64,000 bases of DNA from a virus. Taxonomy: Duplodnaviria > Caudoviricetes. This document shows positions 10,022 to 25,192 of this stretch, one piece after another. The stretch is taken from the IMG/VR virus record IMGVR_UViG_3300043822_000021, positions 4,641 through 68,640 of that record, one strand, 5' to 3'. A program made the position numbers and the translations under genes. Numbering within the stretch: position 1 is the stretch's first letter; each line of letters begins with the position of its first letter. The notes under the pieces are model-generated. The model did not search any database. It was given only the letters and a program-made list of their open reading frames with translations, and was not told the origin of the DNA.

Positions 10022-11972
10022 CTACTCCCATCTGACTTTGTGCGTTCATCGAGCCACCGAATAGTGCCTGTAATTCAGGAGGCAACTGCATCAATACTTC
10101 TGCCGGTAATGTGCCAGTCTGTAAATAATACTGCATGGCTTCCGGAGGAAGTGCCGCCAATACCTGCTGGCGCAGGGACATTTCCATAATCATTCTCTGC
10201 TGTATTACGTCTGGCTCTGTAATGTAGTCCGCATAATTCTTGAATCCTGCAGATTCTATCCACTTTTTGAACAAGTTATAGACGTTCTGGGGAGTAGCAA
10301 TCTGCATACCAGCACTAAGAGTCTGCATAATAGCTGTCAGTATGCTCTGTAACTGCATCTGTGTTGATTCTTTAGTGGCTATACTGATACCAGCATTAAC
10401 AACCAAATCGAAATTGCCTTGTAAGTCATCCGGGCTTATGTGTAATTCCTTATTTGTAAGGCGGATTACTGTTTCTTGGTCTATAAACTGCTGATTCAGA
10501 CCAATCATGAACCGGAACAGTTCGTACATGCCGGTTTCAGCAAACATGCGAGCAATCAATTCCAAACGCTGAGACGACTGTCCGAGGATAGCCGATATAC
10601 CAGTCGCCGTTTTGTTTAACGAGTTAGCGTCTAACCCTTGGTTATACCGGGTGATGCCAGTACGGTTTTCTTTCTGCCCTTCTATATATTCGAGAAACTG
10701 GTACGTATATGGATTCAGCTGATTGACCGGCATAGCCATAGCCACATCCTGCATTGGATGGTTGGCTTTCTTCCGGATGACCGCTCTACCCTGTACATAA
10801 TCGTCTATATTGATAGCATCTTCCGCCAGAATCATTTTAGGGTCATTGGTAAGAGCTATATTGTGTACGATCTGGCGGGTGAGAGCGACTTTCAAGTCCT
10901 GTAATTCACCAATCAATTCAGCGTAAGAACGTTTTACCCAGATACGATGAGGGTCTTTCGTAGGACTGATGGAGAAGAACGGATGTCTGCCCATATAGTT
11001 TGGTTCTACACGGAGAATGGTATCATCACATATAGTGATAATCATATCTTCCAGTACACCATCATTATTCCAGTCTAATTTGGTGTAACATTCATAAATT
11101 GTTACCACGTCACGGGCGTCATCTACGTTGTTATCGAATTTATTGTAATGGTCTCCGATAACATCTTCTACTTCGTCGTCATATTCTAAAGATTCGCTGT
11201 GTTTAGGATGAATCTGGTCTACATTGGCATAAACTCCCTGATTTTCCCGTTCACGCAGGTAACTCATAGTGACTTTTTTCTTGTGAGCAACGAAATTGGC
11301 CTCTTCCAGAGACTTTGCATCTGAGCTGTACAACAATTCAGACACTAAGATATTCTCGATTTTAGGAGAATTCTTCACATAATACGGGGAAATATAGGTA
11401 ACTTCCATGATTCCGTATTCATCCGGAGGTGTAACTTCCAAAATCTGGACATTCTGCTGTTGCAATTCCTGAAAAGCACGGATATTCATATGCTGTTTTA
11501 ATGTCTGTTCTGCTTCCTTTCTATCCCAATAGCATTTAATAATACCCATGCCAGTAATAAGAGCGTCTTTAAACCAGTTATAAAGGATAGGAAATATGCG
11601 GTTCTGACGCTGTAACTGGTACGTAAGCAATTCCTGCATTACTTCAGCATTTTTATCATCCTCTTCAGATACCCCCTGAACAGTGATAATTTCATCACCG
11701 CCAGTAAATACCTTGATGAGAGACGGAAGTGCCCATTCAATCGTATCTGTTACGTCCGTGCTGACAAGAGAACTGAATTTAGACAGCCGTGGGAACTTAT
11801 TCTTGTAATAATCCTTATCGGCATAGTAAATTTCGTACCGTTCTTTGACAGTTGGGAGTATGACAGACTGCTGATAGTCTTCTGCGTCGCTGATATCATG
11901 CTGAATAGCTGTGACAAGACTCTTGTCGATATCATCAATCGTCGGATCGGTCTTGTTATTAACGAAACTCAA
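9816..11972 (-). CDS. Portal protein (SU10/P22-like)
   Basis: 718 aa. DTIEWALPSLIKVFTGG, WFKDALITGMGIIKCYW, YMGRHPF and ENRTGITRYNQGLD motifs typical of podovirus portals. Confidence 0.92.
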   Translation of the reverse strand: MSFVNNKTDPTIDDIDKSLVTAIQHDISDAEDYQQSVILPTVKERYEIYYADKDYYKNKFPRLSKFSSLVSTDVTDTIEWALPSLIKVFTGGDEIITVQGVSEEDDKNAEVMQELLTYQLQRQNRIFPILYNWFKDALITGMGIIKCYWDRKEAEQTLKQHMNIRAFQELQQQNVQILEVTPPDEYGIMEVTYISPYYVKNSPKIENILVSELLYSSDAKSLEEANFVAHKKKVTMSYLRERENQGVYANVDQIHPKHSESLEYDDEVEDVIGDHYNKFDNNVDDARDVVTIYECYTKLDWNNDGVLEDMIITICDDTILRVEPNYMGRHPFFSISPTKDPHRIWVKRSYAELIGELQDLKVALTRQIVHNIALTNDPKMILAEDAINIDDYVQGRAVIRKKANHPMQDVAMAMPVNQLNPYTYQFLEYIEGQKENRTGITRYNQGLDANSLNKTATGISAILGQSSQRLELIARMFAETGMYELFRFMIGLNQQFIDQETVIRLTNKELHISPDDLQGNFDLVVNAGISIATKESTQMQLQSILTAIMQTLSAGMQIATPQNVYNLFKKWIESAGFKNYADYITEPDVIQQRMIMEMSLRQQVLAALPPEAMQYYLQTGTLPAEVLMQLPPELQALFGGSMNAQSQMGVGGFDGQSGIRTAVPADRGYGQSPTGGIGQTNNSGVVGGLSRGDNRNPQNVPRERGNGPPESAGGIGGF

Positions 11973-12463: not shown

Positions 12464-12488
12464 GTGTATTCCCCTTTCGTTATAAATA

Positions 12489-12562
12489 TGGCAAGCCCGT
12501 GAGGAATCGAACCTCAATCTACGGTTTTGGAGACCGTTATTCTACCGTTGAACTAAAGGCTT
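12489..12562 (-). tRNA. tRNA-Trp (CCA)
   Basis: Cloverleaf with ACGGT-CTCCAAA-ACCGT anticodon arm, GGTTCGATTCC T-arm and encoded 3' CCA; one acceptor-stem mismatch. Confidence 0.92.
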
Positions 12563-13908: not shown

Positions 13909-15363
13909 TTACATGGCTCCGGCATACGGTATCTCGTCGGTAGTGACTTTTTCATAAGCCGCAACTGGAGCAAAGCTTACTTGGTCTTGATAAGCCAATG
14001 CATCTATCAAATCGTCGTGTAATGATTTGGGAAATGCTAAAAACTCTCCTTCCAGTTCACCTAAGAATGAAGCCCCCATGGGGAACCAGACCGTACCAGC
14101 CTTGAACCTTGGCTGTATTGCCTGTATCCGCATCTCTTTCTTTTCTTTGGCTTCCAAATCCTTTACCGTGAACCAGATGTTGCGTATTGGCATTTCCTTT
14201 TCTACGAAATGACTTAGTGCCGCCTGATAGGCTACTTTTTCCATACCGACATATATCGGGTGATACCGTGTTACCGCTTCGAAGATGGTGTCAATCGTCT
14301 TACTCGGATTCCATCTCCCGTAAGCCACGTCTAAAACAAACCAGTGATTATCTGAATTGACTCCGACTGTACATACCACTGTGTAGTCGGCTGTTTCTTT
14401 TTCAGAGATAGCCAAATCTACGGTAGTGAATATGTTCATGTCTTTGGTATCCAGCTCCTCTGGTTTGTAATATTTGAAGTATTCTTTCCTGAATAACTGG
14501 GTTTCCGGGGAAATAGCTATACACATTTTTTCCCGTTCCCATACATCTAATTTGCCGATGCGTCTGAAGGCTTCCCGTTCTGCCTTTATCTCTTCCTTGC
14601 TCCATCTTTCAGGCCATACGCTGTTACCTTCTGCATCCAAGATGGGTATCCGCACACCAGCAAACTTTAAGTCTTTCTGATTTTCAATGACTCGTTCTAT
14701 CAGACATTTTTCTCCCAGATTATTCCCTATCATGAATATCCGTGTGTTTTTCCCCAAGAACAGTACATCAGACAGGAACCATTCCCAGTCACCTTCCTGA
14801 ACTGTATCTGACTTGGCATCTTCCAAGTCCTGCGGGTCATCTATCAGTACAATAGAAGGTCTGGTATCATGTGAGTTCAAACCACGGATGGCCGCCCCTT
14901 TACCATAGGCTTCAAACCGTACCCACATCTCCTGCCCGTTCTCGTCTTTGAGTATGACTTCAAATCCGTTCTGTGACTGTTCCACTATCCGGATCAGATT
15001 CATCGACAACAGTTCATTGTTCAGCCACTCTTCTTCAATTTCTTTCAGCCTCTTATTGGCCGCTCTCTGGGTGGCCATGATAAAAACAATGTACTGTCTG
15101 TCTTTACTTGGATATGTCAGGCAATGCATCGGGAATGCCCTTAAAACTACGCCCGATTTCCCACTTTCACGGAACCCTTCTACTGCGTAGTGATGCTTGC
15201 CATGTAGCAATATCTGCCCCCACTCTTCTTGGAATGACGGCGTTGCTACTTCCTTGTCTACCGGGAGGAAGATCCTTCGGAACTTCATCAGGTCATCTTT
15301 ACATTCACGGAACATCTGAGCCATTAATACCCTAGGGTCTATATCAGCCATATACCTATTCAC
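13909..15363 (-). CDS. terL: Terminase large subunit
   Basis: Walker A FRESGKS, Walker B VLIDDPQD, RNase H-like nuclease DLAISEKETAD and HDDLIDALAY. Confidence 0.95.
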   Translation of the reverse strand: MNRYMADIDPRVLMAQMFRECKDDLMKFRRIFLPVDKEVATPSFQEEWGQILLHGKHHYAVEGFRESGKSGVVLRAFPMHCLTYPSKDRQYIVFIMATQRAANKRLKEIEEEWLNNELLSMNLIRIVEQSQNGFEVILKDENGQEMWVRFEAYGKGAAIRGLNSHDTRPSIVLIDDPQDLEDAKSDTVQEGDWEWFLSDVLFLGKNTRIFMIGNNLGEKCLIERVIENQKDLKFAGVRIPILDAEGNSVWPERWSKEEIKAEREAFRRIGKLDVWEREKMCIAISPETQLFRKEYFKYYKPEELDTKDMNIFTTVDLAISEKETADYTVVCTVGVNSDNHWFVLDVAYGRWNPSKTIDTIFEAVTRYHPIYVGMEKVAYQAALSHFVEKEMPIRNIWFTVKDLEAKEKKEMRIQAIQPRFKAGTVWFPMGASFLGELEGEFLAFPKSLHDDLIDALAYQDQVSFAPVAAYEKVTTDEIPYAGAM

Positions 15364-15805
15364 CCCTATCTATACCCGTTCCTACTATATTCGTCTAAAT
15401 CTCACCCTTTGTTTCTACTATATGGACAAATTGTCGAAATACCCTACGGAAATTTCCAAAAATTTTTTGAATTACCCATTTTACGATATAGTACTACCCA
15501 TTATATTTAGTATTTTTATTCGTAATTTAGAGTATAATCCCGGTATTGTATGATACTTTTATACAAAAACATAGAATAAATCTATCAAATAGGTAGAAAA
15601 ATCGACATATAAGAGAGACATAACTTCCCTATTTCGCCCGCCGGGGTGGCAAGGAGTCCCAAATGCGAAGCCCCACCCCCATGGGCCGTTTTTTGTGAGC
15701 CGACTAATATCAATTTGTCGTTAGTATAAATGGTAAGTCAAATAAAGAGTTGACAATAGCCTATAAATGGCTTAACCATGCGGTTCAAGCACTTGTCTAT
15801 AGGTG

Positions 15806-15814
15806 TGTTATGAT
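15806..15814 (+). promoter_or_regulatory. Extended -10 promoter (TGnTATGAT) for the rightward early operon
   Basis: TG-T-TATGAT lies just before a GAGA-capped hairpin and a boxA-like ACCTTGACAAC; no good -35 at 17 bp. Confidence 0.45.
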
Positions 15815-15819
15815 GTAGC

Positions 15820-16075
15820 TGTCCTCGAGAGAGGGCAGGAACCTTGACAACAGAACAACGGCTATGGCGTGAGTGCCTAGGCTACGGCTAAAAGTACTCA
15901 TAAAGTGAAGTTGTTCTATACCGGCGACGGTATCATATCGGTTTCAAGTGCAGGCTTCACAACTTGCAAGCGACAGCTTCCTGCATAAATAGCAGGCCTG
16001 TAAAGTACCTTGTGTGAGCGGACAATAGTCTAGGCTACGGCTGAAGACGACAAAACAGGCTACGGCTTGTGATAG
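15820..16075 (+). ncRNA. Structured leader RNA of the early operon
   Basis: CTGTCCTC-GAGA-GAGGGCAG, AGAACAAC/GTTGTTCT, ATACCG-GCGA-CGGTAT, CCTGC/GCAGG, and three AGGCTACGGCT (cUACGg tetraloop) units; no ORF. Confidence 0.5.
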
Positions 16076-16278
16076 CGGTTCTCATTCCTTTTGATTACTA
16101 GCTACGTTCATCAAAACCCCTAACAAGGTAAACAAGGTATTTCCATAACTGTCTGAGAGTGGGCAGTAAAGGGACGCAAAAAGGAAAGTCCTGTTTGTCA
16201 CCTATGGTATAGGGATAGATATATTCATGGGTAGACATTAGACTTCCGACGAGTAAGTAATAGGATTTTCCCCGCAAC

Positions 16279-16322
16279 GCTGTTTTGGGCGCGGACAGAT
16301 TAAAAGTAGCGCGCCTACCATA
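16279..16322 (+). ncRNA. H-type pseudoknot motif, copy 1
   Basis: GCTGTT-T-TGGGCGCG-GACAGA-TTAAAAGTAG-CGCGCCTA-CCATA. Confidence 0.75.
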
Positions 16323-16355
16323 AGCAAGACAAAAAATACAAAAGGGGGTCATATT

Positions 16356-16874
16356 ATGACTATGACTTTAACAAAAACGGCCTTTAAGGCCGACATGAAA
16401 ACATGGGGTATTCAGCTTAATACCCTTAAAGACGCCCGTTTACAGGCGACTTCTGAAAAGGAACTTAAAGAAGCCCGTGAGCTTACAATTAAGCAGGCGG
16501 TTATCACGGAAACCGCAATATTTTTAGGTGCTTGCTTTGGCTACAATGCGCCGGACGTTCTGTCATATTTTGACCATGGTGTAATGCCGGTCAATGGTCA
16601 ATGGGACGACAAAAAATTTGCCAATAAGTTAAAAGATTTGTTGGCTAAGGCGTGTAAGAGCGCCTATTACAAAACTTCCCTTGATAAGCTTCAGAAGAAA
16701 CATTCTGCTTCTGAAGCGGAAAAAGTTTATGAAATTCAGATGCGTACACTACATCTGATTCATGATGTCATGGGTATTCCGTTCCCCGTACACGCTGTTA
16801 TGCAGGAAGTTGCCTGCAGGCGTGTTAAGGCCGTCCGTAATATTAAGCAGAATGGCCACTTATTCGTTAGATAG
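16356..16874 (+). CDS. Early hypothetical protein
   Basis: 172-aa ORF with an AGGGGG RBS; first gene of the rightward block. Confidence 0.75.
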   Translation: MTMTLTKTAFKADMKTWGIQLNTLKDARLQATSEKELKEARELTIKQAVITETAIFLGACFGYNAPDVLSYFDHGVMPVNGQWDDKKFANKLKDLLAKACKSAYYKTSLDKLQKKHSASEAEKVYEIQMRTLHLIHDVMGIPFPVHAVMQEVACRRVKAVRNIKQNGHLFVR

Positions 16875-16939
16875 GTCGAAACTAGGCATTTGCCTAGTCT
16901 ATAGGGATTGGCTTCCCCTATACTGATGAGACAGGCCAA
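16875..16939 (+). ncRNA. Type II hammerhead ribozyme
   Basis: GTC-GAAA-CTAGGC(ATTT)GCCTAG-TC-TATAGGG(loop)CCCTATA-CTGATGA-GAC. The full catalytic core and GUC site (cleavage after 16899) are present. The stem I loop TTGGCTT can pair with the 3' AGGCCAA as a pseudoknot. Confidence 0.9.
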
Positions 16940-16996
16940 ACTGGAACGTAGACAATTTTCCCCGTTTGCGTTCCTTTTTTGTTGGGAGGAATGTAC

Positions 16997-17149
16997 ATGA
17001 AAAACAATATTGTCGTGTTTGATACGGAGTCTGAAGCACGTAAAGCGTGTGAATGGCTCAATAGTTTTATGGACGAACAGGAAACGGGCGTCCATTTTCA
17101 GGTTGTCGAAAAAGACGGCAAATATATCATTGCCGTTAGTTGTTTCTAA
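16997..17149 (+). CDS. Small early protein (50 aa, MKNNIVVFDTESEAR...)
   Basis: Manual translation; GGGAGG RBS. Confidence 0.6.
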   Translation: MKNNIVVFDTESEARKACEWLNSFMDEQETGVHFQVVEKDGKYIIAVSCF

Positions 17150-17155
17150 GTGTAT

Positions 17156-17199
17156 TGTGCTTTAGTCATGGGCACGTTAAAAGTAGCATGACTGCCATA
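17156..17199 (+). ncRNA. H-type pseudoknot motif, copy 2
   Basis: TGTGCT-T-TAGTCATG-GGCACG-TTAAAAGTAG-CATGACTG-CCATA, followed by a GCTATAGC hairpin and T-run. Confidence 0.8.
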
Positions 17200-17253
17200 T
17201 TGCTATAGCTCACTTGCTATAGCTATTTTTATTATTTGGAAAGGCGGGATTTT

Positions 17254-17484
17254 ATGTATTATGTTACTATGACCGACTCTTTTATGAGCGGTTGGGGAAT
17301 GGCAAAAAACAGGATTAATAAGTTTGTCGTCGCTTGTGAGAACTATTCACAGGCTGAAGAAATTGTTAAAAAGGCACACAAAAGGAGCGAAATGAAATAT
17401 GTTCGCATTGCGAGAAAAATGCCGTATTATTCTCCAAATCGGTACATAACAAGTTGGAGAAAATACAGGGAAATTCACTGGTAA
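17254..17484 (+). CDS. Conserved small phage early protein
   Basis: TDSFMSGWGMAKNRINKFVVAC...RSEMKYV, a pattern recalled from other phage early genes. Confidence 0.7.
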   Translation: MYYVTMTDSFMSGWGMAKNRINKFVVACENYSQAEEIVKKAHKRSEMKYVRIARKMPYYSPNRYITSWRKYREIHW

Positions 17485-17503
17485 TAAGGTTGAGTTTCCC
17501 TTA

Positions 17504-17537
17504 TGTGCTACGGTGTCACACTAAACCACCGTCCATA
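17504..17537 (+). ncRNA. H-type pseudoknot motif, short variant (copy 4)
   Basis: TGTG-CT-ACGGTG-T-CACA-CTAAAC-CACCGT-CCATA, followed by a CCTATC/GATAGG hairpin and T-run. Confidence 0.55.
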
Positions 17538-17591
17538 CTGCCTATCTTATAACTGGATAGGTTATTTTTGTTTTTGAAAGGTGGAATTTAC

Positions 17592-17792
17592 ATGAAAAAA
17601 GAAGAAATGCTGAATGAACTCATCTATGGAGTTGCTTATTGGATGGCGAAAATGATAATCGCCAAATCAGAGGATGAAAAAAAGTTTTTCTCTAAAGTTA
17701 TGCATGAGGAAGAAAAAAATGTTGCCGATATTATTGGCGATATAGCCCTTGAAAGGGCTATGAAATATGTAGAGGACGGTGATGTGAAGTAG
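17592..17792 (+). CDS. Small early hypothetical protein
   Basis: MKKEEMLNELIYG... with an AAGGTGG RBS. Confidence 0.6.
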   Translation: MKKEEMLNELIYGVAYWMAKMIIAKSEDEKKFFSKVMHEEEKNVADIIGDIALERAMKYVEDGDVK

Positions 17793-17800
17793 TTTAAGTA

Positions 17801-17844
17801 TGTCGTTTGGTTGTGGCGACGTTAAAAGTAGCACAACCACCATA
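17801..17844 (+). ncRNA. H-type pseudoknot motif, copy 3
   Basis: TGTCGT-T-TGGTTGTG-GCGACG-TTAAAAGTAG-CACAACCA-CCATA, followed by an AGGCACT/AGTGCCT hairpin and T-run. Confidence 0.8.
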
Positions 17845-17897
17845 CTAGGCACTTTATGTGAGTGCCTGTTTTTAATTGTCTATAGGAGGAATATACC

Positions 17898-19187
17898 ATG
17901 ACATTTAAACCTGTTACAAACGAAGAATTGAAGGAAAATTTCAACTTTAACAAATTGAGCTGTATTTTAGCTGAATATAATTTCAGCGTTATCAAGGACG
18001 AAGAAGGCAAAATATACTTCAGTGAAGACGGAATTAATCCAGCCATTTGTCCTGAATGTGGCGAATATATTCAGGCAACAGACGATAAATGGGCCTTAGA
18101 AAAATTCGGTACAGACGTATATCACTATGAATGTGGCGATTTCTGTTCGGATTGCGATGAATGGTTTCCCAATAGTTATCTTACAGATGTAGGCAACAGC
18201 ACATTCATTTGTGATGATTGTTTCTCTGATAACTGGGAAATATGCCATTCATGCGATGAATATTTTCGCCGTGAAGATGGGTATGAGGGAGACGATGGTG
18301 AGTGGTATTGTGAATGTTGTGCACAGGATTACTATGTGTGCGACAATTGCGGCAGATTACTTGTGGAATGTGACTTAGTAGATGAAGACGGCGACCATTA
18401 TTGCCGCCAATGCCGTGATGACGGTTATGGCAATTGGGAAACAGAAGCTTTATCGGATTACCATTGCGGACGTAAAAACGTATTTATTTCCACTGGCAGT
18501 ACACATAATTCCCCGTATCAGGGAAATTCATATATTGGTATTGAGATGGAGTTCGAGTACTTAGAAACTGCACTTGCAGAGGCATTACCTGAACAATTTA
18601 AAGCTGAAGAGGACGGCTCAGTCCGTTGTGGATATGAGCTTATTTCTGATGCTATGACGTTTAACTATTGGAAACAGGCCATTGATTTAGATGAGCTGAT
18701 TGAAGCCGTAAACCTCTATGGTGGTTGTGCTGGTACAAGTGCTGGTATTCACCTAAACATCAGCACTCACAACATGAGTGTAGAACAGAGAGCGGAAATT
18801 ATCCGCTTTGTATATGAAAACTGGGATTCCTTGATTAAGTTCGGACGTCGGCCCCTTTTAGAAGGGAATTATTACAAATGTCCGCCGGAATGTGATGACA
18901 ATATTTCTTTATTACGTAAGTGTGCGTACCATTGTTGTGGTACAAACACTTCTCATCGGAACCGCATGGAATTGCGGTTTTTCAATTCAAGTATTGATGC
19001 AGACCATATTTGGGCCATTCTTGAATTTGGGCACTGCATTATGGAAATTGTCAAGGCATGTGAAGCCTTGACATGGGATTCTATTATCGAGTACGCCGAA
19101 AAGGACGGTGATTGTGAACATCTGATTAATGAATATAGAAACAACTTTGAGTCTGAAGAACGTAATGAAATTATTTCTAATTGCTAA
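17898..19187 (+). CDS. Putative amidoligase (COOH-NH2 ligase) with N-terminal CxxC repeats
   Basis: YIGIEMEF, EEDGSVRCGYELIS, AGIHLNIS and RMELRFFNSS motifs; about 7 CxxC zinc-knuckle units upstream. Confidence 0.8.
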   Translation: MTFKPVTNEELKENFNFNKLSCILAEYNFSVIKDEEGKIYFSEDGINPAICPECGEYIQATDDKWALEKFGTDVYHYECGDFCSDCDEWFPNSYLTDVGNSTFICDDCFSDNWEICHSCDEYFRREDGYEGDDGEWYCECCAQDYYVCDNCGRLLVECDLVDEDGDHYCRQCRDDGYGNWETEALSDYHCGRKNVFISTGSTHNSPYQGNSYIGIEMEFEYLETALAEALPEQFKAEEDGSVRCGYELISDAMTFNYWKQAIDLDELIEAVNLYGGCAGTSAGIHLNISTHNMSVEQRAEIIRFVYENWDSLIKFGRRPLLEGNYYKCPPECDDNISLLRKCAYHCCGTNTSHRNRMELRFFNSSIDADHIWAILEFGHCIMEIVKACEALTWDSIIEYAEKDGDCEHLINEYRNNFESEERNEIISNC

Positions 19188-19208
19188 TTGCTAAAAGGAG
19201 GAAATATC

Positions 19209-21011
19209 ATGAGTTGGAAATTTGGTTTAGGAAAACATGTAGTAGTAAATGATAGTTTGTGTGTTGTAATTTCCCGTGAATGTGGGGAATATGAACTAAA
19301 GATATGTGGCGTAGACCGTTACTATCATGGGGTTCGTGCTAAATGTATGGAAGAAGTAATAAAAATCGAGTTTATATATACTGGCAAAACAGATTTTGAC
19401 CTTGAATATGGAGAAAAGTACATAGGATATTTGTGTACTAATAATGGCCGTATCTATTTAGAAAATGGAGAAAATTTTAGATATGAATATACTATGTCTC
19501 CAAAACAATTTGAAACCTTGCAAAAGGTGGAATTTGTTTGTGTAAAAGAACCAGTAGAAACACGGCATATGAGAAGGCCAGTATTTATCGGCCGGAAATG
19601 CCATTTAATCCCTACTAAGAACTACGAACCATTTCTCTTACTAAGGGATGAGGAACCTCGTGTATCGGAATACTTGTCAAAACCGCTGGTTGAATTTGAT
19701 GAGTATTTTTATATTGATGAGCATGAAGGCCATTGCTATCAATTACACAATGGTCACCGTCTCGATAGAGATTGGTCGTTTTGGATTGGTGGGGATTGTC
19801 TAGAAAGAATTACAGGCCATCACATCTTATGCCCTACGTGCGGGGAATTTACACGTCCGGATGATTTAAAAATAGTTGGCAAGAGCCTTGTTTGCCCTGA
19901 GTGTGCCAATGACATAGTTACCAGCTGGATTAGCGGGGAACCAATTCCCCGTAGAGCGGCCAGAAAAATAAATACCCATGAGGGAACAAAGTATGTATAT
20001 TGGTCGGAATGGGCGGATGAAATCCTGTATCCTGATGATGACCCTGAATATGCATACAAAGAAGGGGTGATGTTTGTTGATGGTCACTTATTTACAGAAG
20101 CATATGTAAACGAAAAACTGGAAAGTGGCGAATATATCAAATGCTCACGTTGTGGCAATATATTCCCAGCCAGCAATGTTATAGAAACCGATGACGGTGA
20201 ATACATATGCAATAATTGCATGGATGACTACATTGGTGAATATCATTCTAGCCCTGTAACAACTTTTATTAGTTCAGACGAAAAAAGTATGAGACTGTTC
20301 GGTAATGAACCGTTCTTTGGTGTTGAACATGAACTAGGATATGTAGGCAGAGAGAACAATAAACTTGCCTACACATTGACGAATAAATTTAACCGTCATT
20401 GTGAGCATGACTCATCGGTGCCTAAAGGATTTGAAGTTATTTCACAGCCCATGACGTTTGACCGCTGGAAAAACGAAAACATGGCTGAATATATGGCCCT
20501 GTTAAAAGAAAATGGCTATGATGACAGTGATGAAACAGGTATCCACGTACATATAAGCACGCAAAACTTAAATAAGCACGGGATAGCTGAAATATGCCAG
20601 TTTGTCTATGAAAATTACAATGCCCTAATTAAGTTTGGTAGAAGAAACCCTGATGTAACTGGTTATTTCCAGTATATTAATCTTACAGACCCCTTCCTTA
20701 ATGACGAGTTCATAATAGATACCAACAACAGTAGCAGATATCATGCTGTAAACACACGTCATTTAGATGAAAAGAACATCGAATTACGCTTTTTCGCTTC
20801 CACCAATGATGAAAGTCACTTTTGGGCCATTTTGGAATTTTGTTACTGCCTCGAAAAATCAGCAGAGAAAGGAAGTGTAAATTGGGACACAATCACCCAA
20901 ATTGCTGAAGAAGATGGCAGATGCGAAAACTTTTTGAAGGAGGTGAACGATAAATTTGATAATGATTGGACAAGCAAATATTACTATTGTGTAGATGAAC
21001 ATTCTAATTAA
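19209..21011 (+). CDS. Second putative amidoligase with CxxC domains
   Basis: FFGVEHELG, HDSSVPKGFEVISQP, TGIHVHIS, SRYHAVN and IELRFFAST motifs. Confidence 0.82.
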   Translation: MSWKFGLGKHVVVNDSLCVVISRECGEYELKICGVDRYYHGVRAKCMEEVIKIEFIYTGKTDFDLEYGEKYIGYLCTNNGRIYLENGENFRYEYTMSPKQFETLQKVEFVCVKEPVETRHMRRPVFIGRKCHLIPTKNYEPFLLLRDEEPRVSEYLSKPLVEFDEYFYIDEHEGHCYQLHNGHRLDRDWSFWIGGDCLERITGHHILCPTCGEFTRPDDLKIVGKSLVCPECANDIVTSWISGEPIPRRAARKINTHEGTKYVYWSEWADEILYPDDDPEYAYKEGVMFVDGHLFTEAYVNEKLESGEYIKCSRCGNIFPASNVIETDDGEYICNNCMDDYIGEYHSSPVTTFISSDEKSMRLFGNEPFFGVEHELGYVGRENNKLAYTLTNKFNRHCEHDSSVPKGFEVISQPMTFDRWKNENMAEYMALLKENGYDDSDETGIHVHISTQNLNKHGIAEICQFVYENYNALIKFGRRNPDVTGYFQYINLTDPFLNDEFIIDTNNSSRYHAVNTRHLDEKNIELRFFASTNDESHFWAILEFCYCLEKSAEKGSVNWDTITQIAEEDGRCENFLKEVNDKFDNDWTSKYYYCVDEHSN

Positions 21012-21037
21012 TTGACAACGAAAAGGAGAAATGAAAT

Positions 21038-22003
21038 ATGTGCATTATAGCTGTATACAAAAAAGGTGTAAAACTCGACAAAAACGAACTGAAAACTTGC
21101 TTTACCAATAATCATGATGGGGCTGGCATGATGTGGCAGGAGATGGGAAAGGTTAATATTTTAAAAGGATATATGGACTTTGATTCGTTCTGGGAAGTCG
21201 CTAAAACCCTACCTACAAATGTGGACAGGGCTTTTCATTTCAGAATTGCGACATCCGGTAAAGTTAGCGCCGCTTGTTGTCACCCGTTTGAAGTGTGTGA
21301 CGATTATAAGAGAATGGCGTTGTCTGATAACGTGTGTGATGTAGCATTTATGCATAACGGTATATTGAGTGAATTTACTCCAAAAGGAGGCATGAAAGCG
21401 TCTCACTCCGATAGTATGGAATTTGGCAAGGTAATCTTGAATGGCGTAAAAGATGTCATAGACAATCAGACAGTACGTGATTTAATCGAGTTATACACAA
21501 CTTCCCGATTTGCAATTATGACCCCTAGTAAAGTGTATCTGCTAGGCTCATTTGAACAGAGTGTAAACTCAAAAGCTTTTTACTCAAACAGTACTTACAA
21601 AGAAAGCCGGTACACCAGCTGGCTCAAAGATTATCGTGGATACGACGATTATGGATACTATGGTTACGGTAGTAGTAAATATTATCCCGTTTGTAAGTTG
21701 TCTACTGCTGATGCAAATACAAAAAAATTATCTTCTGGATCTGATTATGAGTATGACAGATGGGAATATGACCAGTGTTTAAGAGTCCGCAACAATAAAT
21801 ACACAGATAAAGGAGTCGATGAAATTATAAGATGCGCTGAAAAGCAGTTACACATTGAGATTTACGATTACCAGACAGATGAAGATGAAATTCTATTCTT
21901 CTTTAATGGCACCTGCCCTGATTATGGTTGCTTGAAATTGGACAAGAAATACAAAATGAACCCCATTGAGTTTTCTGTAATCTACGTTGACGATACCTTT
22001 TAA
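21038..22003 (+). CDS. Class II (Ntn) glutamine amidotransferase
   Basis: N-terminal MCIIA (catalytic Cys2), NHDGAG, HFRIATSG, CHPF, HNG and SDS motifs. Confidence 0.88.
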   Translation: MCIIAVYKKGVKLDKNELKTCFTNNHDGAGMMWQEMGKVNILKGYMDFDSFWEVAKTLPTNVDRAFHFRIATSGKVSAACCHPFEVCDDYKRMALSDNVCDVAFMHNGILSEFTPKGGMKASHSDSMEFGKVILNGVKDVIDNQTVRDLIELYTTSRFAIMTPSKVYLLGSFEQSVNSKAFYSNSTYKESRYTSWLKDYRGYDDYGYYGYGSSKYYPVCKLSTADANTKKLSSGSDYEYDRWEYDQCLRVRNNKYTDKGVDEIIRCAEKQLHIEIYDYQTDEDEILFFFNGTCPDYGCLKLDKKYKMNPIEFSVIYVDDTF

Positions 22004-22016
22004 TAGGAGGTAAATT

Positions 22017-22145
22017 ATGAAAATAAATATATGGAACGACCTGTTCTGCCCCACGATAGAAATTATCGTTGGGGCAGTTTTAATATCTGGATATTTCTTA
22101 TTGGTTGAATTTCTGGCAGACTTTTTTGCCAATCTTGTGAAATGA
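22017..22145 (+). CDS. Small membrane protein (42 aa)
   Basis: Manual translation MKINIWNDLFCPTIEIIVGAVLISGYFLLVEF...; AGGAGG RBS and one hydrophobic span. Confidence 0.5.
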   Translation: MKINIWNDLFCPTIEIIVGAVLISGYFLLVEFLADFFANLVK

Positions 22146-22155
22146 GGTCGGTTAT

Positions 22156-22374
22156 ATGAATCCGGAAGATAAAAAATGGGAAGACACACTTAAAGCAACA
22201 AAAGACTTTTTGAAAGCACTGGAAAATACCACATCTGAAGAAGAGTTAGAAAAATTACGTGACAGGATGGATTTATTGCAAGCGCAATACAGTAATAACC
22301 CCGCTTATTATGCACTATTGCAAATGAAACTACTGGAAAAGAAAGCCTTATTACACGATAAGGAAAGGAGCTGA
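22156..22374 (+). CDS. Hypothetical protein
   Basis: 72-aa helical ORF with RBS, in operon order. Confidence 0.6.
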   Translation: MNPEDKKWEDTLKATKDFLKALENTTSEEELEKLRDRMDLLQAQYSNNPAYYALLQMKLLEKKALLHDKERS

Positions 22375-22380
22375 GGGATA

Positions 22381-22566
22381 ATGTACGAATTAGAAAATCC
22401 AATGGTTTCTGGTGCGGGGTTTGCACCTGAAAAGCCAGAACATGAATACACATTACTTATCAGTGGTTATGTCACCGTAAATGCTTCTAGTTTTGAAGAA
22501 GCTAAATATTTAGCCGACGTTATGGATATGGAAGTACAAGACATTGAATTAGTCGATTACGAATAG
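22381..22566 (+). CDS. Hypothetical protein
   Basis: 61-aa acidic ORF with RBS. Confidence 0.6.
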   Translation: MYELENPMVSGAGFAPEKPEHEYTLLISGYVTVNASSFEEAKYLADVMDMEVQDIELVDYE

Positions 22567-22576
22567 GAGGATTACT

Positions 22577-23014
22577 ATGAACATTACAAAAGAACAGGCA
22601 AAAATGGCATTATCCGTATTAACTGCGTATGTAGAAGGCACAAGCAGTGCGGATTTGGGCATCAGTACAAAATGTTTATTAAAACTACAAGATTCTAGTG
22701 ATTTTATAAAACTTTTTGTGGATATGACCCAAGACAGGAACTTGCCAATAACTTACTACTATATGGAGGAATTTGACGACATTTTCCGTGACGTTTTACC
22801 CTTTGATGTAGCCAGAGGTATAGTGTATGGCAAGTTTGATCCAACTGACGACTTCTTTTATCTTACATGTGACAATGAAATTAAAAGCGTATCGACATAT
22901 TATTTATTACCAGTGGCGTATGAACATTTTAATGAAGTACTGGAATATGTAATTGACACAAACAGAGTAAACGAATTAATAAAGAATTTGGAAAAATGTG
23001 ATAAAAAGGGGTGA
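22577..23014 (+). CDS. Hypothetical protein
   Basis: 145-aa ORF with an AGGAGG RBS. Confidence 0.65.
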   Translation: MNITKEQAKMALSVLTAYVEGTSSADLGISTKCLLKLQDSSDFIKLFVDMTQDRNLPITYYYMEEFDDIFRDVLPFDVARGIVYGKFDPTDDFFYLTCDNEIKSVSTYYLLPVAYEHFNEVLEYVIDTNRVNELIKNLEKCDKKG

Positions 23015-23048
23015 AAACACATAGAAAAATGTGATAGGAGGCGTTGCA

Positions 23049-23504
23049 ATGGCATATACATACAAACTAAAATTATACGTTGATGGGAGTTGGGCAAAAG
23101 AAGAGAACAATTACACATGGGCGTTTATTGCAGTCAAGGGAAGGAAGTGTATACACCAGTCCTCCGGTATGGGGACTAATGATAAGGCCCGTAGAATGAA
23201 ACATGTAGCGGGGGAACTCTCCGCCGCCATGAGAGCTGTCAAATGGGCCGTTGACAACGGTTATGAAAAGTTTGAGTTGTACTATGACTTTGAAGGCATT
23301 GAACTACTTACCCATGTACAAGGGAATCGCATTTTTACCCGTAAGTACCATCAATTTATTTCTAAATATCTTGATAGAATTACATTTGTTAAAGTAAAGT
23401 CTCATGTAGAGGATAAAGATGAGACTAAGTATAAATGGAACAATATGGTTGATAAACTAGCTAGTTCCGTTTGCAGTAATGACTCAGTAGAGATTCCATG
23501 GTAG
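23049..23504 (+). CDS. Ribonuclease HI-like protein
   Basis: YVDGS, VAGELSAAMRAVKWA, YYDFEG, VKVKSH and NNMVDKLA give the D-E-D-D RNase H catalytic set. Confidence 0.85.
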   Translation: MAYTYKLKLYVDGSWAKEENNYTWAFIAVKGRKCIHQSSGMGTNDKARRMKHVAGELSAAMRAVKWAVDNGYEKFELYYDFEGIELLTHVQGNRIFTRKYHQFISKYLDRITFVKVKSHVEDKDETKYKWNNMVDKLASSVCSNDSVEIPW

Positions 23505-23518
23505 GAGGTGTAATGGTA

Positions 23519-23740
23519 ATGTATACAGCAATATTAAAACTCGTAACAGGCGAAGAAGTATATTATGGGAATTTTGAAGAACGCATCCCGGCAGTGACGC
23601 TTCTTTTAGAAATTAAAGATAAGCCTATTATTCCCGTTAAAGAAAAAACAGGAAGAACATTATTTATTTATACAGACAAAGTTATCGGAACCACTAAATA
23701 CCAAAAGAAAATATTACCACAAGAGAAAATATTTCAATAA
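23519..23740 (+). CDS. Hypothetical protein
   Basis: Small ORF after a GGAGGT RBS. Confidence 0.55.
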   Translation: MYTAILKLVTGEEVYYGNFEERIPAVTLLLEIKDKPIIPVKEKTGRTLFIYTDKVIGTTKYQKKILPQEKIFQ

Positions 23741-23753
23741 GGAGGGTTAAACA

Positions 23754-24026
23754 ATGTACCAGAAATATAGTAAACCCAAATTAGACATGCGTTATATATA
23801 CAAATGCGAAAAAGAACGTAACGGTTTTCCTTATCGTTTCCCCATCAGAAAATGGAAAAAAGAGATAAATAAAAAATATTATGCGTGGGTAGACGTGTCC
23901 CTATCCGGCATTGATGAAGAGTTCGACATTGATAAAGAAGGTGGACTAGACTTTAATAACATATACGTTTGCGAATATTATTATTTTTTAAAAAAGAATG
24001 GTGAAGTCGGTTGCGAGTACAATTAA
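23754..24026 (+). CDS. Hypothetical protein
   Basis: 90-aa ORF with a GGAGG RBS. Confidence 0.55.
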   Translation: MYQKYSKPKLDMRYIYKCEKERNGFPYRFPIRKWKKEINKKYYAWVDVSLSGIDEEFDIDKEGGLDFNNIYVCEYYYFLKKNGEVGCEYN

Positions 24027-25192
24027 AAGAACATCAAAAAACTGCTGTCAAATGGATACAGGAACATGGATACCAGTGCATGTTGTGTGACGATATGGGG
24101 TTAGGCAAAACCGCCACCGCTTTATCCGGTATTGCTGGATGGTTGGATATGGGCAGATATTTAATTGTCTGCCCTGCCTCCCTTAAACTGAACTGGTGCC
24201 ATGAAATAAAAATGTGGTTAGATATTGACACTGTACCAGACAATATGACAGATTATCCTATTGCAGTGACAAATTATGAACGTTTGGGGGCGTATAAGGA
24301 TATTATAAAAGAACAGAACTTTATTGGTGCCATATTTGACGAGTCTCATTACCTTAAAAATCCGAACAGTACAAGGACAAAGCTTGCCATCGAATTGTGC
24401 CGATACATTGCATTTGTTATGCTTTTATCCGGTACTCCTATGGTTTCTGGCCCAGCTGATTTGGCACCGCAACTTGATGTGTTACGTTTATTGCCAGATT
24501 TTGGTGGTTATATGAAATTTTATCGTAGATACTGTAACCCAGTGCAAACGCCATATGGCTGGGACTTCACTGGGGCTTCACATATAGCAGAGTTGCACAA
24601 AAAGTTAAAAAAGTTTATGATAAGAAGAACAAAGGAAGAATGTGGTATTAATCTTCCACCGAAACAAATTATTGATATCCCTGTAACAAACTGTATACAG
24701 CCGTATGCACACACATTGCAGGATATGGAGTTACAACAGCAGATGGTTAATGACGTTAAATACCCTTATGCTGTTGATTTTATTAATAACCTGTTACTTT
24801 CTGGCAAACGACCAGTTGTGTTTGTTCATCATAAAAACTTAATGAAAGACCTGATGGACAAGTATGGGAATATAGCAGTCAATATCTATGGAGGGCAAAC
24901 AGCAGAAGAAAGAGAATGTGCGGTTAGGAGGTTCCAGAACGAGGAAGTAGCACTTATCTTCTGCTCTCTGCAAGCGTCTGCAACTGGTATTACATTAACT
25001 AGCAGTGATACAGCCGTGTTCCTAGAATATCTATGGTCGCCATCAATATCTAAACAGGCACAGGACAGGATACACCGCATATCACAAACGAGGCCAGTAA
25101 CCATTTATAACTTGTATTGCCCCGGATCAATAGAGTCACAAAAGGAAATTCGTTCGTATATCAAGGAATTAGATATGGAGGGAGTGCTATGA
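24011..25192 (+). CDS. SNF2-family helicase/ATPase
   Basis: DDMGLGKT, DESH, LSGTP, GITLT and QAQDRIHRI SF2 motifs. Confidence 0.9.
   Translation: MRVQLKEHQKTAVKWIQEHGYQCMLCDDMGLGKTATALSGIAGWLDMGRYLIVCPASLKLNWCHEIKMWLDIDTVPDNMTDYPIAVTNYERLGAYKDIIKEQNFIGAIFDESHYLKNPNSTRTKLAIELCRYIAFVMLLSGTPMVSGPADLAPQLDVLRLLPDFGGYMKFYRRYCNPVQTPYGWDFTGASHIAELHKKLKKFMIRRTKEECGINLPPKQIIDIPVTNCIQPYAHTLQDMELQQQMVNDVKYPYAVDFINNLLLSGKRPVVFVHHKNLMKDLMDKYGNIAVNIYGGQTAEERECAVRRFQNEEVALIFCSLQASATGITLTSSDTAVFLEYLWSPSISKQAQDRIHRISQTRPVTIYNLYCPGSIESQKEIRSYIKELDMEGVL

What the first reader, a model, noticed from the sequence alone, without database searches (positions are those of the whole stretch)
16279..17844. Repeated H-type pseudoknot RNA with invariant UUAAAAGUAG linker and CCAUA tail in the early intergenic spacers
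Three copies (16279, 17156, 17801) have an identical architecture: P1 (6 bp, one mismatch in copy 1), U, P2 (8 bp), P1', TTAAAAGTAG, P2', CCATA. The stem sequences are almost entirely different yet still pair (P2: TGGGCGCG/CGCGCCTA, TAGTCATG/CATGACTG, TGGTTGTG/CACAACCA), which is covariation within one genome. A shorter fourth copy (17504) keeps the topology and CCATA. Each sits just ahead of a small early gene, and three are followed directly by a hairpin plus U-run. The conserved unpaired nucleotides imply a tertiary fold or a ligand/protein site. Hypotheses (inference): an antitermination or attenuation switch; a processing or nuclease-blocking element working with the neighbouring hammerhead; or a mimic of type III toxin-antitoxin antitoxin pseudoknots (as with phage pseudo-ToxI). 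I cannot match it to a riboswitch or ribozyme class I know.
Basis: partly seen in the sequence, partly recalled or inferred. Interest (0 to 1): 0.9.

Follow-up and report, generated by a model that had tools for sequence, protein, structure and literature searches.

The report
Pseudoknot RNA module between phage genes
A small knotted RNA fold, absent from RNA catalogues, sits in the gaps between the first genes of an uncultured phage, in the slot where relatives carry a self-cutting hammerhead RNA, so it probably marks where the long early message is cut or bounded, but this is untested.

Summary
Three long copies (16279, 17156, 17801) share exactly TTAAAAGTAG-N8-CCATA. Both stems of the proposed H-type pseudoknot covary: 95% of cells are paired and 7 of 14 pairs change on both sides. 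The shorter copy at 17504 belongs to a real short subclass (4 sequences, 100% paired, 6 of 10 pairs with double changes). Many G·U pairs place the fold on the sense RNA strand.

No Rfam family matches, including Pistol and Hammerhead_II. The motif occurs only in this 68.6-kb phage and a few close relatives.

Three points are new. The element is half of a modular cassette (pseudoknot, CCAUAYU, intrinsic terminator) that is gained, lost and recombined as a unit. It fills the same slot as a type II hammerhead, and in an orthologous spacer of a relative the short form replaces the hammerhead. No small early protein co-occurs with it.

My best reading (about 0.35) is an intercistronic processing or boundary signal. 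It may be a tRNA-acceptor mimic (invariant loop-1 U, R-CCA after stem 2) cut by host RNase P, for which an in-vitro precedent exists. Rivals are a passive boundary or nuclease barrier, a termination tuner, and a new self-cleaving ribozyme. The antitoxin-mimic and riboswitch readings are poorly supported. No RNA data could be obtained.

This scan has noted other, different pseudoknot modules at phage gene boundaries.

The parts
16279..16322 (+). Long-form pseudoknot, copy 1: P1 16279-16284/16294-16299 (first pair G·A), L1 U16285, P2 16286-16293/16310-16317, linker 16300-16309, tail CCAUA 16318-16322. It lies at the end of the roughly 540-nt leader, 33 nt before the ATG of the 172-aa gene, with no terminator after it.
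   Evidence: The orthologue in L122 carries a compensatory G-C to A-U change in P2.
17156..17199 (+). Long-form pseudoknot, copy 2: P1 17156-17161/17171-17176, L1 U17162, P2 17163-17170/17187-17194, linker 17177-17186, tail 17195-17199. It starts 6 nt after the TAA of gene 16991-17149.
17202..17233 (+). Intrinsic terminator of cassette 2 (hairpin 17202-17223 plus U-run). Together with copy 2 it forms an 83-nt unit (17151-17233) that is absent as a block in relative L151.
17504..17537 (+). Short-form pseudoknot (copy 4): P1 17504-17507/17517-17520, L1 CU, P2 17510-17515/17527-17532, L2 U17516, linker CUAAAC 17521-17526, tail CCAUA 17533-17537.
17540..17575 (+). Intrinsic terminator of cassette 4 (hairpin 17540-17562 plus U-run). 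In L122, CCCATACT plus this terminator is kept although the pseudoknot is gone.
17801..17844 (+). Long-form pseudoknot, copy 3: P1 17801-17806/17816-17821, L1 U17807, P2 17808-17815/17832-17839, linker 17822-17831, tail 17840-17844. It starts 8 nt after the TAG of gene 17592-17792.
17846..17878 (+). Intrinsic terminator of cassette 3 (hairpin 17846-17868 plus U-run). In L148 it is joined at CCATA to the short pseudoknot.
16875..16939 (+). Type II hammerhead-like element in the equivalent slot after gene 1: GAAA 16878-16881, stem III hairpin, GUC with cleavage expected after C16899, stem I 16900-16906/16916-16922, CUGAUGA 16923-16929, loop I/3'-tail pseudoknot to 16933-16939. It has the same H-type topology and the same 10-nt linker length as the long pseudoknot.
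   Evidence: stem III covaries in L151 and L148. Perreault 2011 describes this type. Not recognised by the Rfam models.
16943..16980 (+). Conserved terminator hairpin with loop AAUUUUCCCC (complementary to the G-rich Shine-Dalgarno sequences) plus U-run. It follows the hammerhead here and the short pseudoknot in G002.

Best explanation
The element is a cis-acting, sense-strand RNA that folds into a compact H-type pseudoknot. Stem 1 has 5-6 bp, loop 1 is a single U, stem 2 has 6-8 bp, and an A-rich 10-nt loop 3 is followed by an unpaired R-CCA-UA tail.

It is the upstream half of a modular intercistronic cassette in the phage's early operon: stop codon, pseudoknot, CCAUAYU, intrinsic terminator, Shine-Dalgarno sequence, next gene.

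I read it as an mRNA processing or boundary signal that does the same job as the type II hammerhead in the neighbouring spacer. That job is to define where the polycistronic early RNA is cut and which structured end each cistron keeps.

The specific mechanism I favour is inferred, not shown. The stacked stems plus the R-CCA tail would mimic a tRNA acceptor arm. Host RNase P would then cut in loop 1, between U14 and U15 of the motif (for example 17162|17163).

Shown: the fold, the strand, the cassette structure, the slot equivalence with the hammerhead, and the lack of a phage-specific protein partner.

Inferred: that any cut occurs, and which agent makes it.
For: Fold and strand:
- Covariation supports both stems in the long form (95.2% paired, 7/14 pairs with double changes) and in the short form (100% paired, 6/10).
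- 23 of 126 cells are G·U, including the invariant U13·G23. These would be A·C mismatches on the other strand.

Slot equivalence with the hammerhead:
- In the window and in L148, a type II hammerhead precedes the conserved terminator with the AUUUUCCCC loop.
- In G002 the short pseudoknot precedes that same terminator, and the downstream genes are homologous (35% identity, E 2e-9).
- More distant relatives carry type II hammerheads in their early spacers.
- Perreault 2011 reports hammerheads flanking single genes in prophages and infers transcript processing.

No phage partner:
- The small early genes g1-g4 of the window have no homologue in pseudoknot-bearing G002. This points to a host factor or an RNA-only mechanism.

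RNase P idea:
- CCA is invariant in all 15 sequences.
- In the long form CCA follows a purine directly after stem 2.
- The single loop-1 nucleotide is always U.
- A small H-type pseudoknot given a 3' RCCA trailer is cut in loop 1 by bacterial RNase P RNA of types A and B, and the cut depends on RCCA (PMC12710915).
- The phage's own tRNA-Trp ends G-CCA-UAUU.

Copy 1 sits at the 3' end of a roughly 540-nt leader, just ahead of gene 1. A leader-removing cut would make sense there.
Against:
- RNase P cleavage of pseudoknots in vitro is inefficient, and whether it happens in vivo is stated to be an open question.
- The short form has U, not a purine, before CCA, and only about 10 stacked pairs.
- The CCA is internal, followed by a terminator hairpin, not at a free 3' end.
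- The RNase P idea does not explain the strict conservation of UUAAAAGUAG or of UA after CCA.
- CCAUACU stays with the terminator in L122 after the pseudoknot is lost. The tail may therefore belong to the terminator module.
- Slot sharing with a hammerhead could reflect cassette mobility rather than equal function.
- Rfam models do not recognise the hammerhead itself, although its core is complete by inspection.
Confidence: 0.35

Rival explanations
1. Passive boundary element. The pseudoknot would be a stable fold that is not cut. It would shield the neighbouring message from exonucleases (3'-5' exonucleases behind the terminator, or a 5'-3' enzyme such as RNase J after an upstream cut). It could also insulate terminator folding from the ribosome stopping 5-8 nt upstream. 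Its conserved sequence would serve as the crossover point for shuffling of small early genes, as PeSL cassettes do in T4-type phages.
For: Cassette boundaries coincide with mosaic junctions:
- L151 lacks 17151-17233.
- L148 joins the short pseudoknot to the copy-3 terminator at CCATA.
- L122 replaces the short pseudoknot and its gene but keeps CCCATACT plus the terminator.
- In L146 only the 46-nt motif is alignable, in an otherwise unrelated context.

PeSLs are terminator-containing cassettes that mediate modular shuffling (PMC2839356). A hammerhead's 3' product begins with exactly this kind of H-type fold.
Against: A passive barrier or crossover site does not need about 20 invariant unpaired or junction nucleotides while the stems vary freely. 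Five to ten bases of homology is very short for recombination. Terminator hairpins already protect 3' ends.
Confidence: 0.2
2. Termination tuner. As it leaves RNA polymerase just before the terminator hairpin, the nascent pseudoknot would act on the elongation complex, either directly like HK022 put RNA or through a host factor like lambda nut sites. This would raise or lower read-through of the serial early terminators.
For: In most terminator-bearing cassettes the pseudoknot ends 6-8 nt before an intrinsic terminator. Downstream genes have no room for their own promoters, so they need read-through. One copy sits in the leader and others sit just after stop codons, as with nutL and nutR (established knowledge, from memory). 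Several copies per genome with covarying stems and fixed loops resemble putL/putR (from memory).
Against: Copy 1 and the G002 long copy have no adjacent terminator. In L122 the cassette-4 terminator persists with no pseudoknot. A self-cleaving hammerhead fills the same slot, which this model does not explain. No conserved alternative pairing with the terminators was found. The fold does not resemble the two-hairpin put architecture.
Confidence: 0.15
3. A new class, or a far-diverged pistol-like variant, of self-cleaving ribozyme that cuts the early transcript without any protein.
For: It occupies the hammerhead's slot and replaces it in an orthologous spacer. This is the kind of context in which pistol, hatchet and twister-sister were discovered. 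About 20 invariant nucleotides cluster in loops and at the helix junction. The P1 plus loop pseudoknot plus A-rich strand, and the purine-G before the 3' pseudoknot strand, recall the pistol scaffold (architecture; sequence resemblance from memory only). No phage protein partner co-occurs.
Against: The Pistol and all other Rfam ribozyme models give no hit, even at E 10 on 121 nt. There is no P2/P3 with a 2-nt junction that is conserved in all copies. The nucleotides after the 3' pseudoknot strand are CCA, not the catalytic G-C-G of pistol. The short form has only a 6-nt linker. Most conserved motifs found next to ribozymes do not cleave.
Confidence: 0.1
4. Ligand-sensing riboswitch (preQ1-I-like small pseudoknot aptamer) controlling the terminator that follows.
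For: Small H-type pseudoknot with an A-rich loop 3, placed just upstream of terminators.
Against: No Rfam riboswitch hit. The terminator does not overlap the aptamer, and no conserved antiterminator pairing exists. Stem 2 is a stable 6-8-bp helix that should form without a ligand. Two copies lack an adjacent terminator. The downstream genes are unrelated to one another.
Confidence: 0.04
5. Decoy of a host type III antitoxin RNA (pseudo-ToxI/CptI) that neutralises an abortive-infection toxin.
For: The unit length (about 45 nt), the pseudoknot fold, the A-rich stretch and the following terminator recall type III loci (from memory).
Against: The copies are single and dispersed with different stem sequences, whereas antitoxin arrays are tandem and near-identical. 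No Rfam ToxI hit was found. No ToxN/AbiQ-like protein lies next to them. No matching host locus was found in 185,579 species genomes.
Confidence: 0.03
6. A DNA-level signal, such as a hairpin promoter for a virion RNA polymerase, an operator or a recombination site, rather than an RNA.
For: The phage has a 2754-aa protein of unknown function (52079-60343, minus strand) that could in principle be a virion polymerase. N4-type polymerases use DNA hairpin promoters (from memory).
Against: 18% of paired cells are G·U, which are mismatches on the complementary strand and weak in DNA. Two interlocked helices both covary. The element lies upstream of a terminator, so transcripts started there would stop at once. 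The giant protein has no Pfam or PHROG polymerase match.
Confidence: 0.03

Closest known systems
Type II hammerhead ribozymes with a loop I/3'-tail pseudoknot, flanking single genes in phages and prophages (Perreault et al. 2011, PMC3088659)
   Same: Same genomic slot, directly after a stop codon and before the terminator and Shine-Dalgarno sequence of the next early gene. The two are interchangeable in an orthologous spacer. Same H-type topology: stem I corresponds to P1, the loop I/tail pairing to P2, with a 1-nt loop 1 and a 10-nt linker.
   Different: No CUGANGA or GAAA core, and no stems II or III. The linker is UUAAAAGUAG and the tail is CCAUA. Self-cleavage is unknown.
Pistol self-cleaving ribozyme (Rfam RF02679; Harris et al. 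2015, PMC4604425)
   Same: A short P1 hairpin whose loop forms a 6-8-bp pseudoknot with a downstream strand. An A-rich strand leaves P1, and a purine-G precedes the 3' pseudoknot strand. It is phage-associated and found near hammerheads.
   Different: No P2 or P3 with a 2-nt cleavage junction common to all copies. CCA stands where pistol has its catalytic G40-C41-G42. The linker is 6-10 nt rather than about 17 nt. The covariance model gives no hit.
Pseudoknotted tRNA-acceptor mimics cut by RNase P (TYMV tRNA-like structure; biotin-aptamer pseudoknot with an RCCA trailer, Kosek et al. 2025, PMC12710915)
   Same: An H-type pseudoknot whose 3' strand of stem 2 is followed by purine-CCA, with a single-stranded loop 1 where RNase P cuts. 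Here loop 1 is an invariant U, the residue commonly found at -1 of bacterial pre-tRNAs (from memory).
   Different: The element is internal to an mRNA rather than at a 3' end. It has no T-loop or anticodon-arm equivalents. The short form has U before CCA. No cleavage has been tested.
PeSL cassettes (promoter-early stem-loops) of T4-type phages (Arbiol et al. 2010, PMC2839356)
   Same: Short repeated regulatory cassettes containing a terminator, placed between small non-essential early genes, that coincide with insertion, deletion and replacement junctions between related phages.
   Different: PeSLs pair a sigma-70 promoter with a stem-loop. Here there is no promoter, and the conserved part is a covarying RNA pseudoknot.
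Intercistronic RNase III sites of T7 early mRNA and HK022 put / lambda nut sites (from memory)
   Same: Structured RNA elements repeated between early cistrons, or ahead of terminators, that act in cis on the early transcript.
   Different: Different folds (long irregular hairpins; two stem-loops; boxB hairpin) and no sequence similarity. None is a pseudoknot with a CCA tail.

Membership tests
Pistol ribozyme (RF02679) | Match to the family covariance model | tested here: not met
   No match at E<=10 in the whole genome or in a 121-nt search of all Rfam.
Pistol ribozyme (RF02679) | P1 hairpin whose loop forms a pseudoknot with a downstream junction strand | tested here: met
   P1 and P2 covary.
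Pistol ribozyme (RF02679) | P2 and P3 with a strictly 2-nt junction holding the cleavage site | tested here: not met
   The linker of 10 nt (long) or 6 nt (short) has no room for a P2 strand. Copy 1 has no downstream hairpin, and the hairpins after the G002 long copy are not followed by a U-run that could form P2.
Pistol ribozyme (RF02679) | Catalytic G40 (with C41 and G42) directly after the 3' pseudoknot strand | tested here: not met
   All copies have C-C-A at these positions.
Hammerhead ribozyme, type II (RF02276) | Core CUGANGA ... GAAA ... UH with three stems | tested here: not met
   None of the four pseudoknot copies has these motifs, and no model hit was found. The neighbouring element 16875-16939 does have them by inspection.
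Type III toxin-antitoxin antitoxin RNA (ToxI/CptI-like) | Tandem near-identical repeats upstream of a terminator and a ToxN/AbiQ/CptN-family toxin gene | tested here: not met
   The copies are single and 350-880 nt apart with different stems. The downstream proteins have no toxin family match. No Rfam hit.
preQ1-I and other small pseudoknot riboswitches | Match to a family model, and an expression platform that overlaps the aptamer | tested here: not met
   No Rfam hit. The terminators are separate from the pseudoknot, and no conserved alternative pairing was found.
RNase P pseudoknot substrate / tRNA-acceptor mimic | Helix end followed by a single-stranded purine-CCA | tested here: met
   R-CCA directly follows P2' in all 11 long copies. 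The short form has U-CCA.
RNase P pseudoknot substrate / tRNA-acceptor mimic | Coaxial stack comparable to the 12-bp acceptor/T arm | tested here: inconclusive
   6-8 bp plus 5-6 bp gives 11-14 bp in the long form and 10 bp in the short form. The terminal pairs 8-28 and 16-45 are weak.
RNase P pseudoknot substrate / tRNA-acceptor mimic | Cleavage in loop 1 that depends on RCCA | not testable with these tools
   Needs an enzyme assay or RNA-end mapping.
PeSL-type mobile regulatory cassette | Repeated cassette with a terminator at insertion, deletion and replacement junctions of small early genes | tested here: met
   Block loss in L151, junctions at CCATA in L148 and L122, and the motif alone conserved in L146.
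PeSL-type mobile regulatory cassette | Strong sigma-70 early promoter inside the cassette | tested here: not met
   Only 10-25 nt lie between the U-run and the Shine-Dalgarno sequence. No promoter-like site falls in the cassettes.

The most novel reading that the evidence does not exclude
[quoted passage not shown] It would have taken over hammerhead slots in this phage lineage and would cut the early transcript without any protein.
Probability: 0.1. Interest if true: 0.9.

Novelty: new variant of a known kind. Interest (0 to 1): 0.6.

Why it matters
Self-cleaving ribozymes between phage genes have been known since 2011, but their purpose is unresolved. Here a non-hammerhead fold of about 45 nt replaces a hammerhead in the same spacer of related phages. 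That gives a natural swap experiment: whatever the pseudoknot does should show what the hammerhead is for in these operons.

If host RNase P cuts it, this would be the first natural in-vivo pseudoknot substrate of RNase P in an mRNA. A 2025 paper still calls that an open question. It would also show that phages can use a host enzyme in place of a ribozyme.

If it cuts itself, it is a new ribozyme class.

If it is passive, it is a compact terminator-linked insulator that could be useful in synthetic operons.

The family is small (one phage lineage), so its general importance is limited unless analogous modules elsewhere prove related.

Tried and rejected
**Searches for relatives**
- The loose pattern TTAAAAGTAG-N8-CCATA in viral contigs gave more than 118 single matches, with only the close relative's contig (L065) among the rows shown.
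- A 16-base relaxed pattern gave 43 loci. None had the fold apart from the relatives already known; the best other model scores (about 31 bits) lie in coding sequence.
- The 20-base pattern in 185,579 species genomes gave one chance hit, in Variovorax, so no prophage or host was identified.
- blastn of 15300-18300 against GenBank phages found no match.
- The covariance model R1 found nothing in G003, G004, G005 or in the relatives with 54-57% identical TerL. A script scan for 'pseudoknot + CCA' agreed and gave a background of about one weak hit per 55 kb.

**Known RNA families**
- All of Rfam at gathering and E-value thresholds gave only three tRNAs plus weak chance hits: Gut-1 at E 0.12 and mir-44 at E 2.9.
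- The Pistol and Hammerhead_II models gave no hit.

**Readings considered and dropped**
- Stop-codon read-through or frameshift stimulator. The pseudoknots begin 5-8 nt after stops, but the extension frames differ between copies and stop within 10-13 codons, and no slippery site is present.
- A closing helix between the 5' flank and the CCAUA tail. It is not conserved.
- Pairing of P1 or P2' with the next gene's start region, seen in the MFE folds of copies 2 and 3. It is not kept in L122, where the downstream gene differs.
- A pistol-like P2 between the linker A-run and the terminator U-run. It is possible only where a terminator is adjacent, and it fails for copy 1 and the G002 long copy.
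- A phage protein partner among the small early genes. None is shared with G002.

**Unavailable**
Full report
**Setting**

The window is bases 4641-68640 of a 68,640-base virus record that CheckV rates as complete.
- It encodes an SU10-type portal (9819-11972, minus strand) and a large terminase (13909-15351, minus strand).
- It also encodes DNA polymerase III alpha, a DnaB helicase with an intein, an integrase and three tRNAs.
- A 1-kb non-coding stretch (15352-16355) separates the terminase from a plus-strand block, 16356-25461.
- That block opens with four small genes (172, 52, 76 and 66 aa). Two amidoligases, an N-terminal-Cys amidotransferase-like gene and an SNF2 helicase follow.
- Calling this block 'early' is an inference from position and gene content.

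- TTAAAAGTAG-N8-CCATA occurs three times with no mismatch (16300, 17177, 17822, plus strand). It occurs nowhere else in the genome, even allowing 2-3 mismatches.
- Each copy reads P1(6), U, P2(8), P1', 10-nt linker, P2', CCAUA.
- I collected homologous copies from relatives found through the terminase and through a 20-base pattern built from the invariant positions.
- The ungapped alignment of 11 copies (9 distinct) gives 95.2% standard pairs. Seven of 14 pairs change on both sides, spread over both helices. Registers slid by 1-3 columns give 19-57% pairing.
- Some changes are orthologous. Copy 1 in L122 turns a G-C pair of P2 into A-U. Copy 3 in L122 turns U·G into U-A and G-C into G·U.
- Eighteen percent of paired cells are G·U, including the invariant U13·G23 at the helix junction. 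The fold therefore belongs to the plus strand, which is the sense RNA.

**The short copy belongs to a subclass**

- The copy at 17504-17537 has P1 of 4 bp, CU, P2 of 6 bp, one pyrimidine, P1', YUAAAC, P2' and CCAUA.
- Three more versions exist: L148, L151 and G002 (= L125's record).
- All 40 cells pair, and 6 of 10 pairs change on both sides.
- Both forms share a P1 that begins YGUS and pairs with SACR, a UAAA in loop 3, and the CCAUA tail.

**It is not a catalogued RNA, and the family is small**

- Rfam 15 gives only the three tRNAs at gathering score. The region gives only chance-level hits at E up to 10.
- The Pistol and Hammerhead_II models find nothing in the genome.
- A covariance model of the long form (R1) and direct pattern scans find the motif in six places only: this phage; a 99%-TerL relative (G001/L122, three copies); a 90%-TerL relative (G002/L125, one long and one short copy); and metagenome fragments L146/L147, L148 and L151.
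- It is absent from complete relatives G003 and G004 (TerL 86% and 78% identical) and from the 54-57% group.
- It is absent from GenBank phages by blastn. Apart from one chance match, it is absent from 185,579 species genomes.
- A generic script scan for 'perfect pseudoknot followed by CCA' gives about one weak hit per 55 kb of related phage DNA. In this window it gives four strong hits within 1.6 kb.

**Context: a modular cassette**

- Copies 2, 4 and 3 are each followed after 6-7 nt (CCAUAYU) by a terminator-like hairpin and U-run. The Shine-Dalgarno sequence of the next gene follows 10-25 nt later, which leaves no room for a promoter.
- The long copies begin 5-8 nt after the upstream stop codon in four independent contexts.
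- Copy 1 differs. It ends the roughly 540-nt leader, 33 nt before the first ATG, and has no terminator.
- The G002 long copy is separated from its terminator by about 48 nt.

The cassettes behave as units in comparisons between relatives.
- L151 lacks exactly 17151-17233, which is pseudoknot 2 plus its terminator.
- L148 joins the short pseudoknot to the terminator of cassette 3 at CCATA.
- L122 has a different gene in place of the short pseudoknot but keeps CCCATACT plus the terminator.
- In L146 only the 46-nt motif aligns, within an otherwise unrelated context.

This is the pattern described for PeSL cassettes of T4-type phages, except that there is no promoter here.

**Same slot as a hammerhead**

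- The spacer after gene 1 holds what reads as a complete type II hammerhead (16875-16939). It has GAAA, stem III, GUC, stem I, CUGAUGA, a 3-bp stem II, and a loop I/3'-tail pseudoknot.
- This is the variant described by Perreault et al., who note that stem II can be as short as 2 bp.
- Rfam's models do not score it. However, its stem III covaries in L151 and L148, and more distant relatives (L131, L138) carry other type II hammerheads in their early spacers.
- The hammerhead has the same H-type topology as the new motif and the same 10-nt linker length.
- A conserved terminator follows it, with the loop AAUUUUCCCC.
- In G002 the same terminator, ahead of a homologous gene (35% identity, E 2e-9), is preceded by the short pseudoknot instead of the hammerhead.
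- After that gene, three relatives carry three different long-form versions at the same position.

**What it most likely does**

No small early protein is shared between the window and G002. A phage-specific protein partner among these genes is therefore unlikely, and the element should act alone or through a host factor.

Interchange with a self-cleaving ribozyme argues for a role in cutting or bounding the polycistronic RNA. Perreault et al. drew the same inference for clustered hammerheads.

Only one reading I found explains the invariant CCA (preceded by a purine in the long form) right after stem 2, together with the invariant loop-1 U. That reading is a tRNA-acceptor mimic for RNase P.
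- Kosek et al. 2025 show that a small H-type pseudoknot becomes a substrate of bacterial RNase P RNA (types A and B) once it carries a 3' RCCA trailer.
- The cut falls in loop 1, and the authors state that in-vivo targeting of pseudoknots is an open question.
- The phage's tRNA-Trp ends G-CCA-UAUU, like cassette 2. This is a weak coincidence.

I put about 0.35 on 'processing signal equivalent to the hammerhead, probably through RNase P'. This reading has several weaknesses.
- There are no RNA data.
- In-vitro cleavage of pseudoknots is inefficient.
- The short form has U-CCA.
- The CCA is internal.
- The strict conservation of UUAAAAGUAG is unexplained.
- CCAUACU can stay with the terminator when the pseudoknot is lost.

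**Rivals**

- **Passive boundary, nuclease barrier or crossover element (0.2).** It fits the mosaicism but not the roughly 20 invariant non-helical nucleotides.
- **Termination or antitermination tuner (0.15).** It fits the position ahead of terminators. It does not fit copy 1, the G002 copy, the terminator that survives without a pseudoknot, or the hammerhead swap.
- **New self-cleaving ribozyme (0.1).** It fits the context in which pistol and others were found and a partial likeness to the pistol scaffold. The pistol-defining P2/P3 junction and the catalytic G after the pseudoknot strand are missing.
- **Riboswitch (0.04), type III antitoxin decoy (0.03), DNA-level signal (0.03).** Each fails at least one tested feature.

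**Novelty and score**

The motif is a new RNA family. Its kind, a structured RNA module at phage early-gene boundaries sharing slots with ribozymes, is known. Earlier notes of this scan record other, different pseudoknot modules of that kind in other genomes. I did not check those notes, and none shares sequence with this one.

I rate it a new variant of a known kind, with interest 0.6. The support for the structure is strong, the natural hammerhead-for-pseudoknot swap is unusual, and the tests are cheap. Against that, the distribution is narrow and the function is unproven.

Noticed in passing
window 16875-16939: A type II hammerhead with a complete core by inspection, starting at the stop codon of gene 1. 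The Rfam hammerhead models give no hit even at E 10. Stem III covaries in L151 (GCA/UGC to GUG/CAC) and its loop varies in L148. Other type II hammerheads sit in the early spacers of distant relatives (L131:188-322 minus strand, L138:1057-1176 minus strand).
   Followed up: partly
window 16943-16980; also 16264-16273 and 17491-17499: A conserved terminator hairpin whose loop AAUUUUCCCC is complementary to the G-rich Shine-Dalgarno sequences. The same AUUUUCCCCG lies just 5' of pseudoknot copy 1 and of the short copy in L148. MFE folds pair it with the next gene's Shine-Dalgarno sequence. This may be a translational masking element.
   Followed up: partly
window 15793-15803, 16895-16905, 17876-17886: TTGTCTATAGG (TAGTCTATAGG at the hammerhead cleavage site) occurs three times in the early region. 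The two extra copies lie near the start of the leader and just before the Shine-Dalgarno sequence of the 429-aa gene. Pairing with the hammerhead's stem III arm looked too weak for trans cleavage.
   Followed up: partly
window 16190-16278: The stretch before copy 1 shares blocks with the hammerhead cassette (TATAGGGAT, GTAGACA, ATTTTCCCCG). It has CCGACGAG where L151 has CUGACGAG. This may be a decayed hammerhead cassette, and it also forms a 5+8-bp pseudoknot-like pairing (16194-16232).
   Followed up: no
window 15879-15889, 16032-16042, 16057-16067: AGGCTACGGCT is repeated three times in the roughly 540-nt leader. The leader is well conserved in L122 and L151, with at least one covarying hairpin (16142-16159).
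   Followed up: no
window 15759-15789: About 30 nt are 93% identical in the distant relatives L125 and L146, while the surrounding DNA is not alignable. This is probably the early promoter or operator region.
   Followed up: no
window 52079-60343 (minus strand): A 2754-aa ORF with no Pfam or PHROG match at E 0.01, in a 68.6-kb podophage-like genome. Its role is unknown; it may be a virion-internal protein or a polymerase.
   Followed up: no
window 12485-12562 (minus strand): The phage tRNA-Trp has an encoded CCA followed by UAUU, the same trailer as the pseudoknot cassette 2 tail (G-CCA-UAUU). tRNA-Ser also encodes CCA; tRNA-Met does not.
   Followed up: partly
window 17717-17795: A weak sub-threshold match to Rfam Gut-1 RNA (24 bits, E 0.12, gathering score 50) inside the 66-aa gene just upstream of copy 3. 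It is probably chance.
   Followed up: no
L151 (ERZ773248 NODE-43): A close relative of this phage lies on a 159-kb metagenome contig, more than twice the phage's size. This could be a prophage in a host contig, a concatemer or a chimeric assembly. If it is a prophage, the contig could reveal the host.
   Followed up: no
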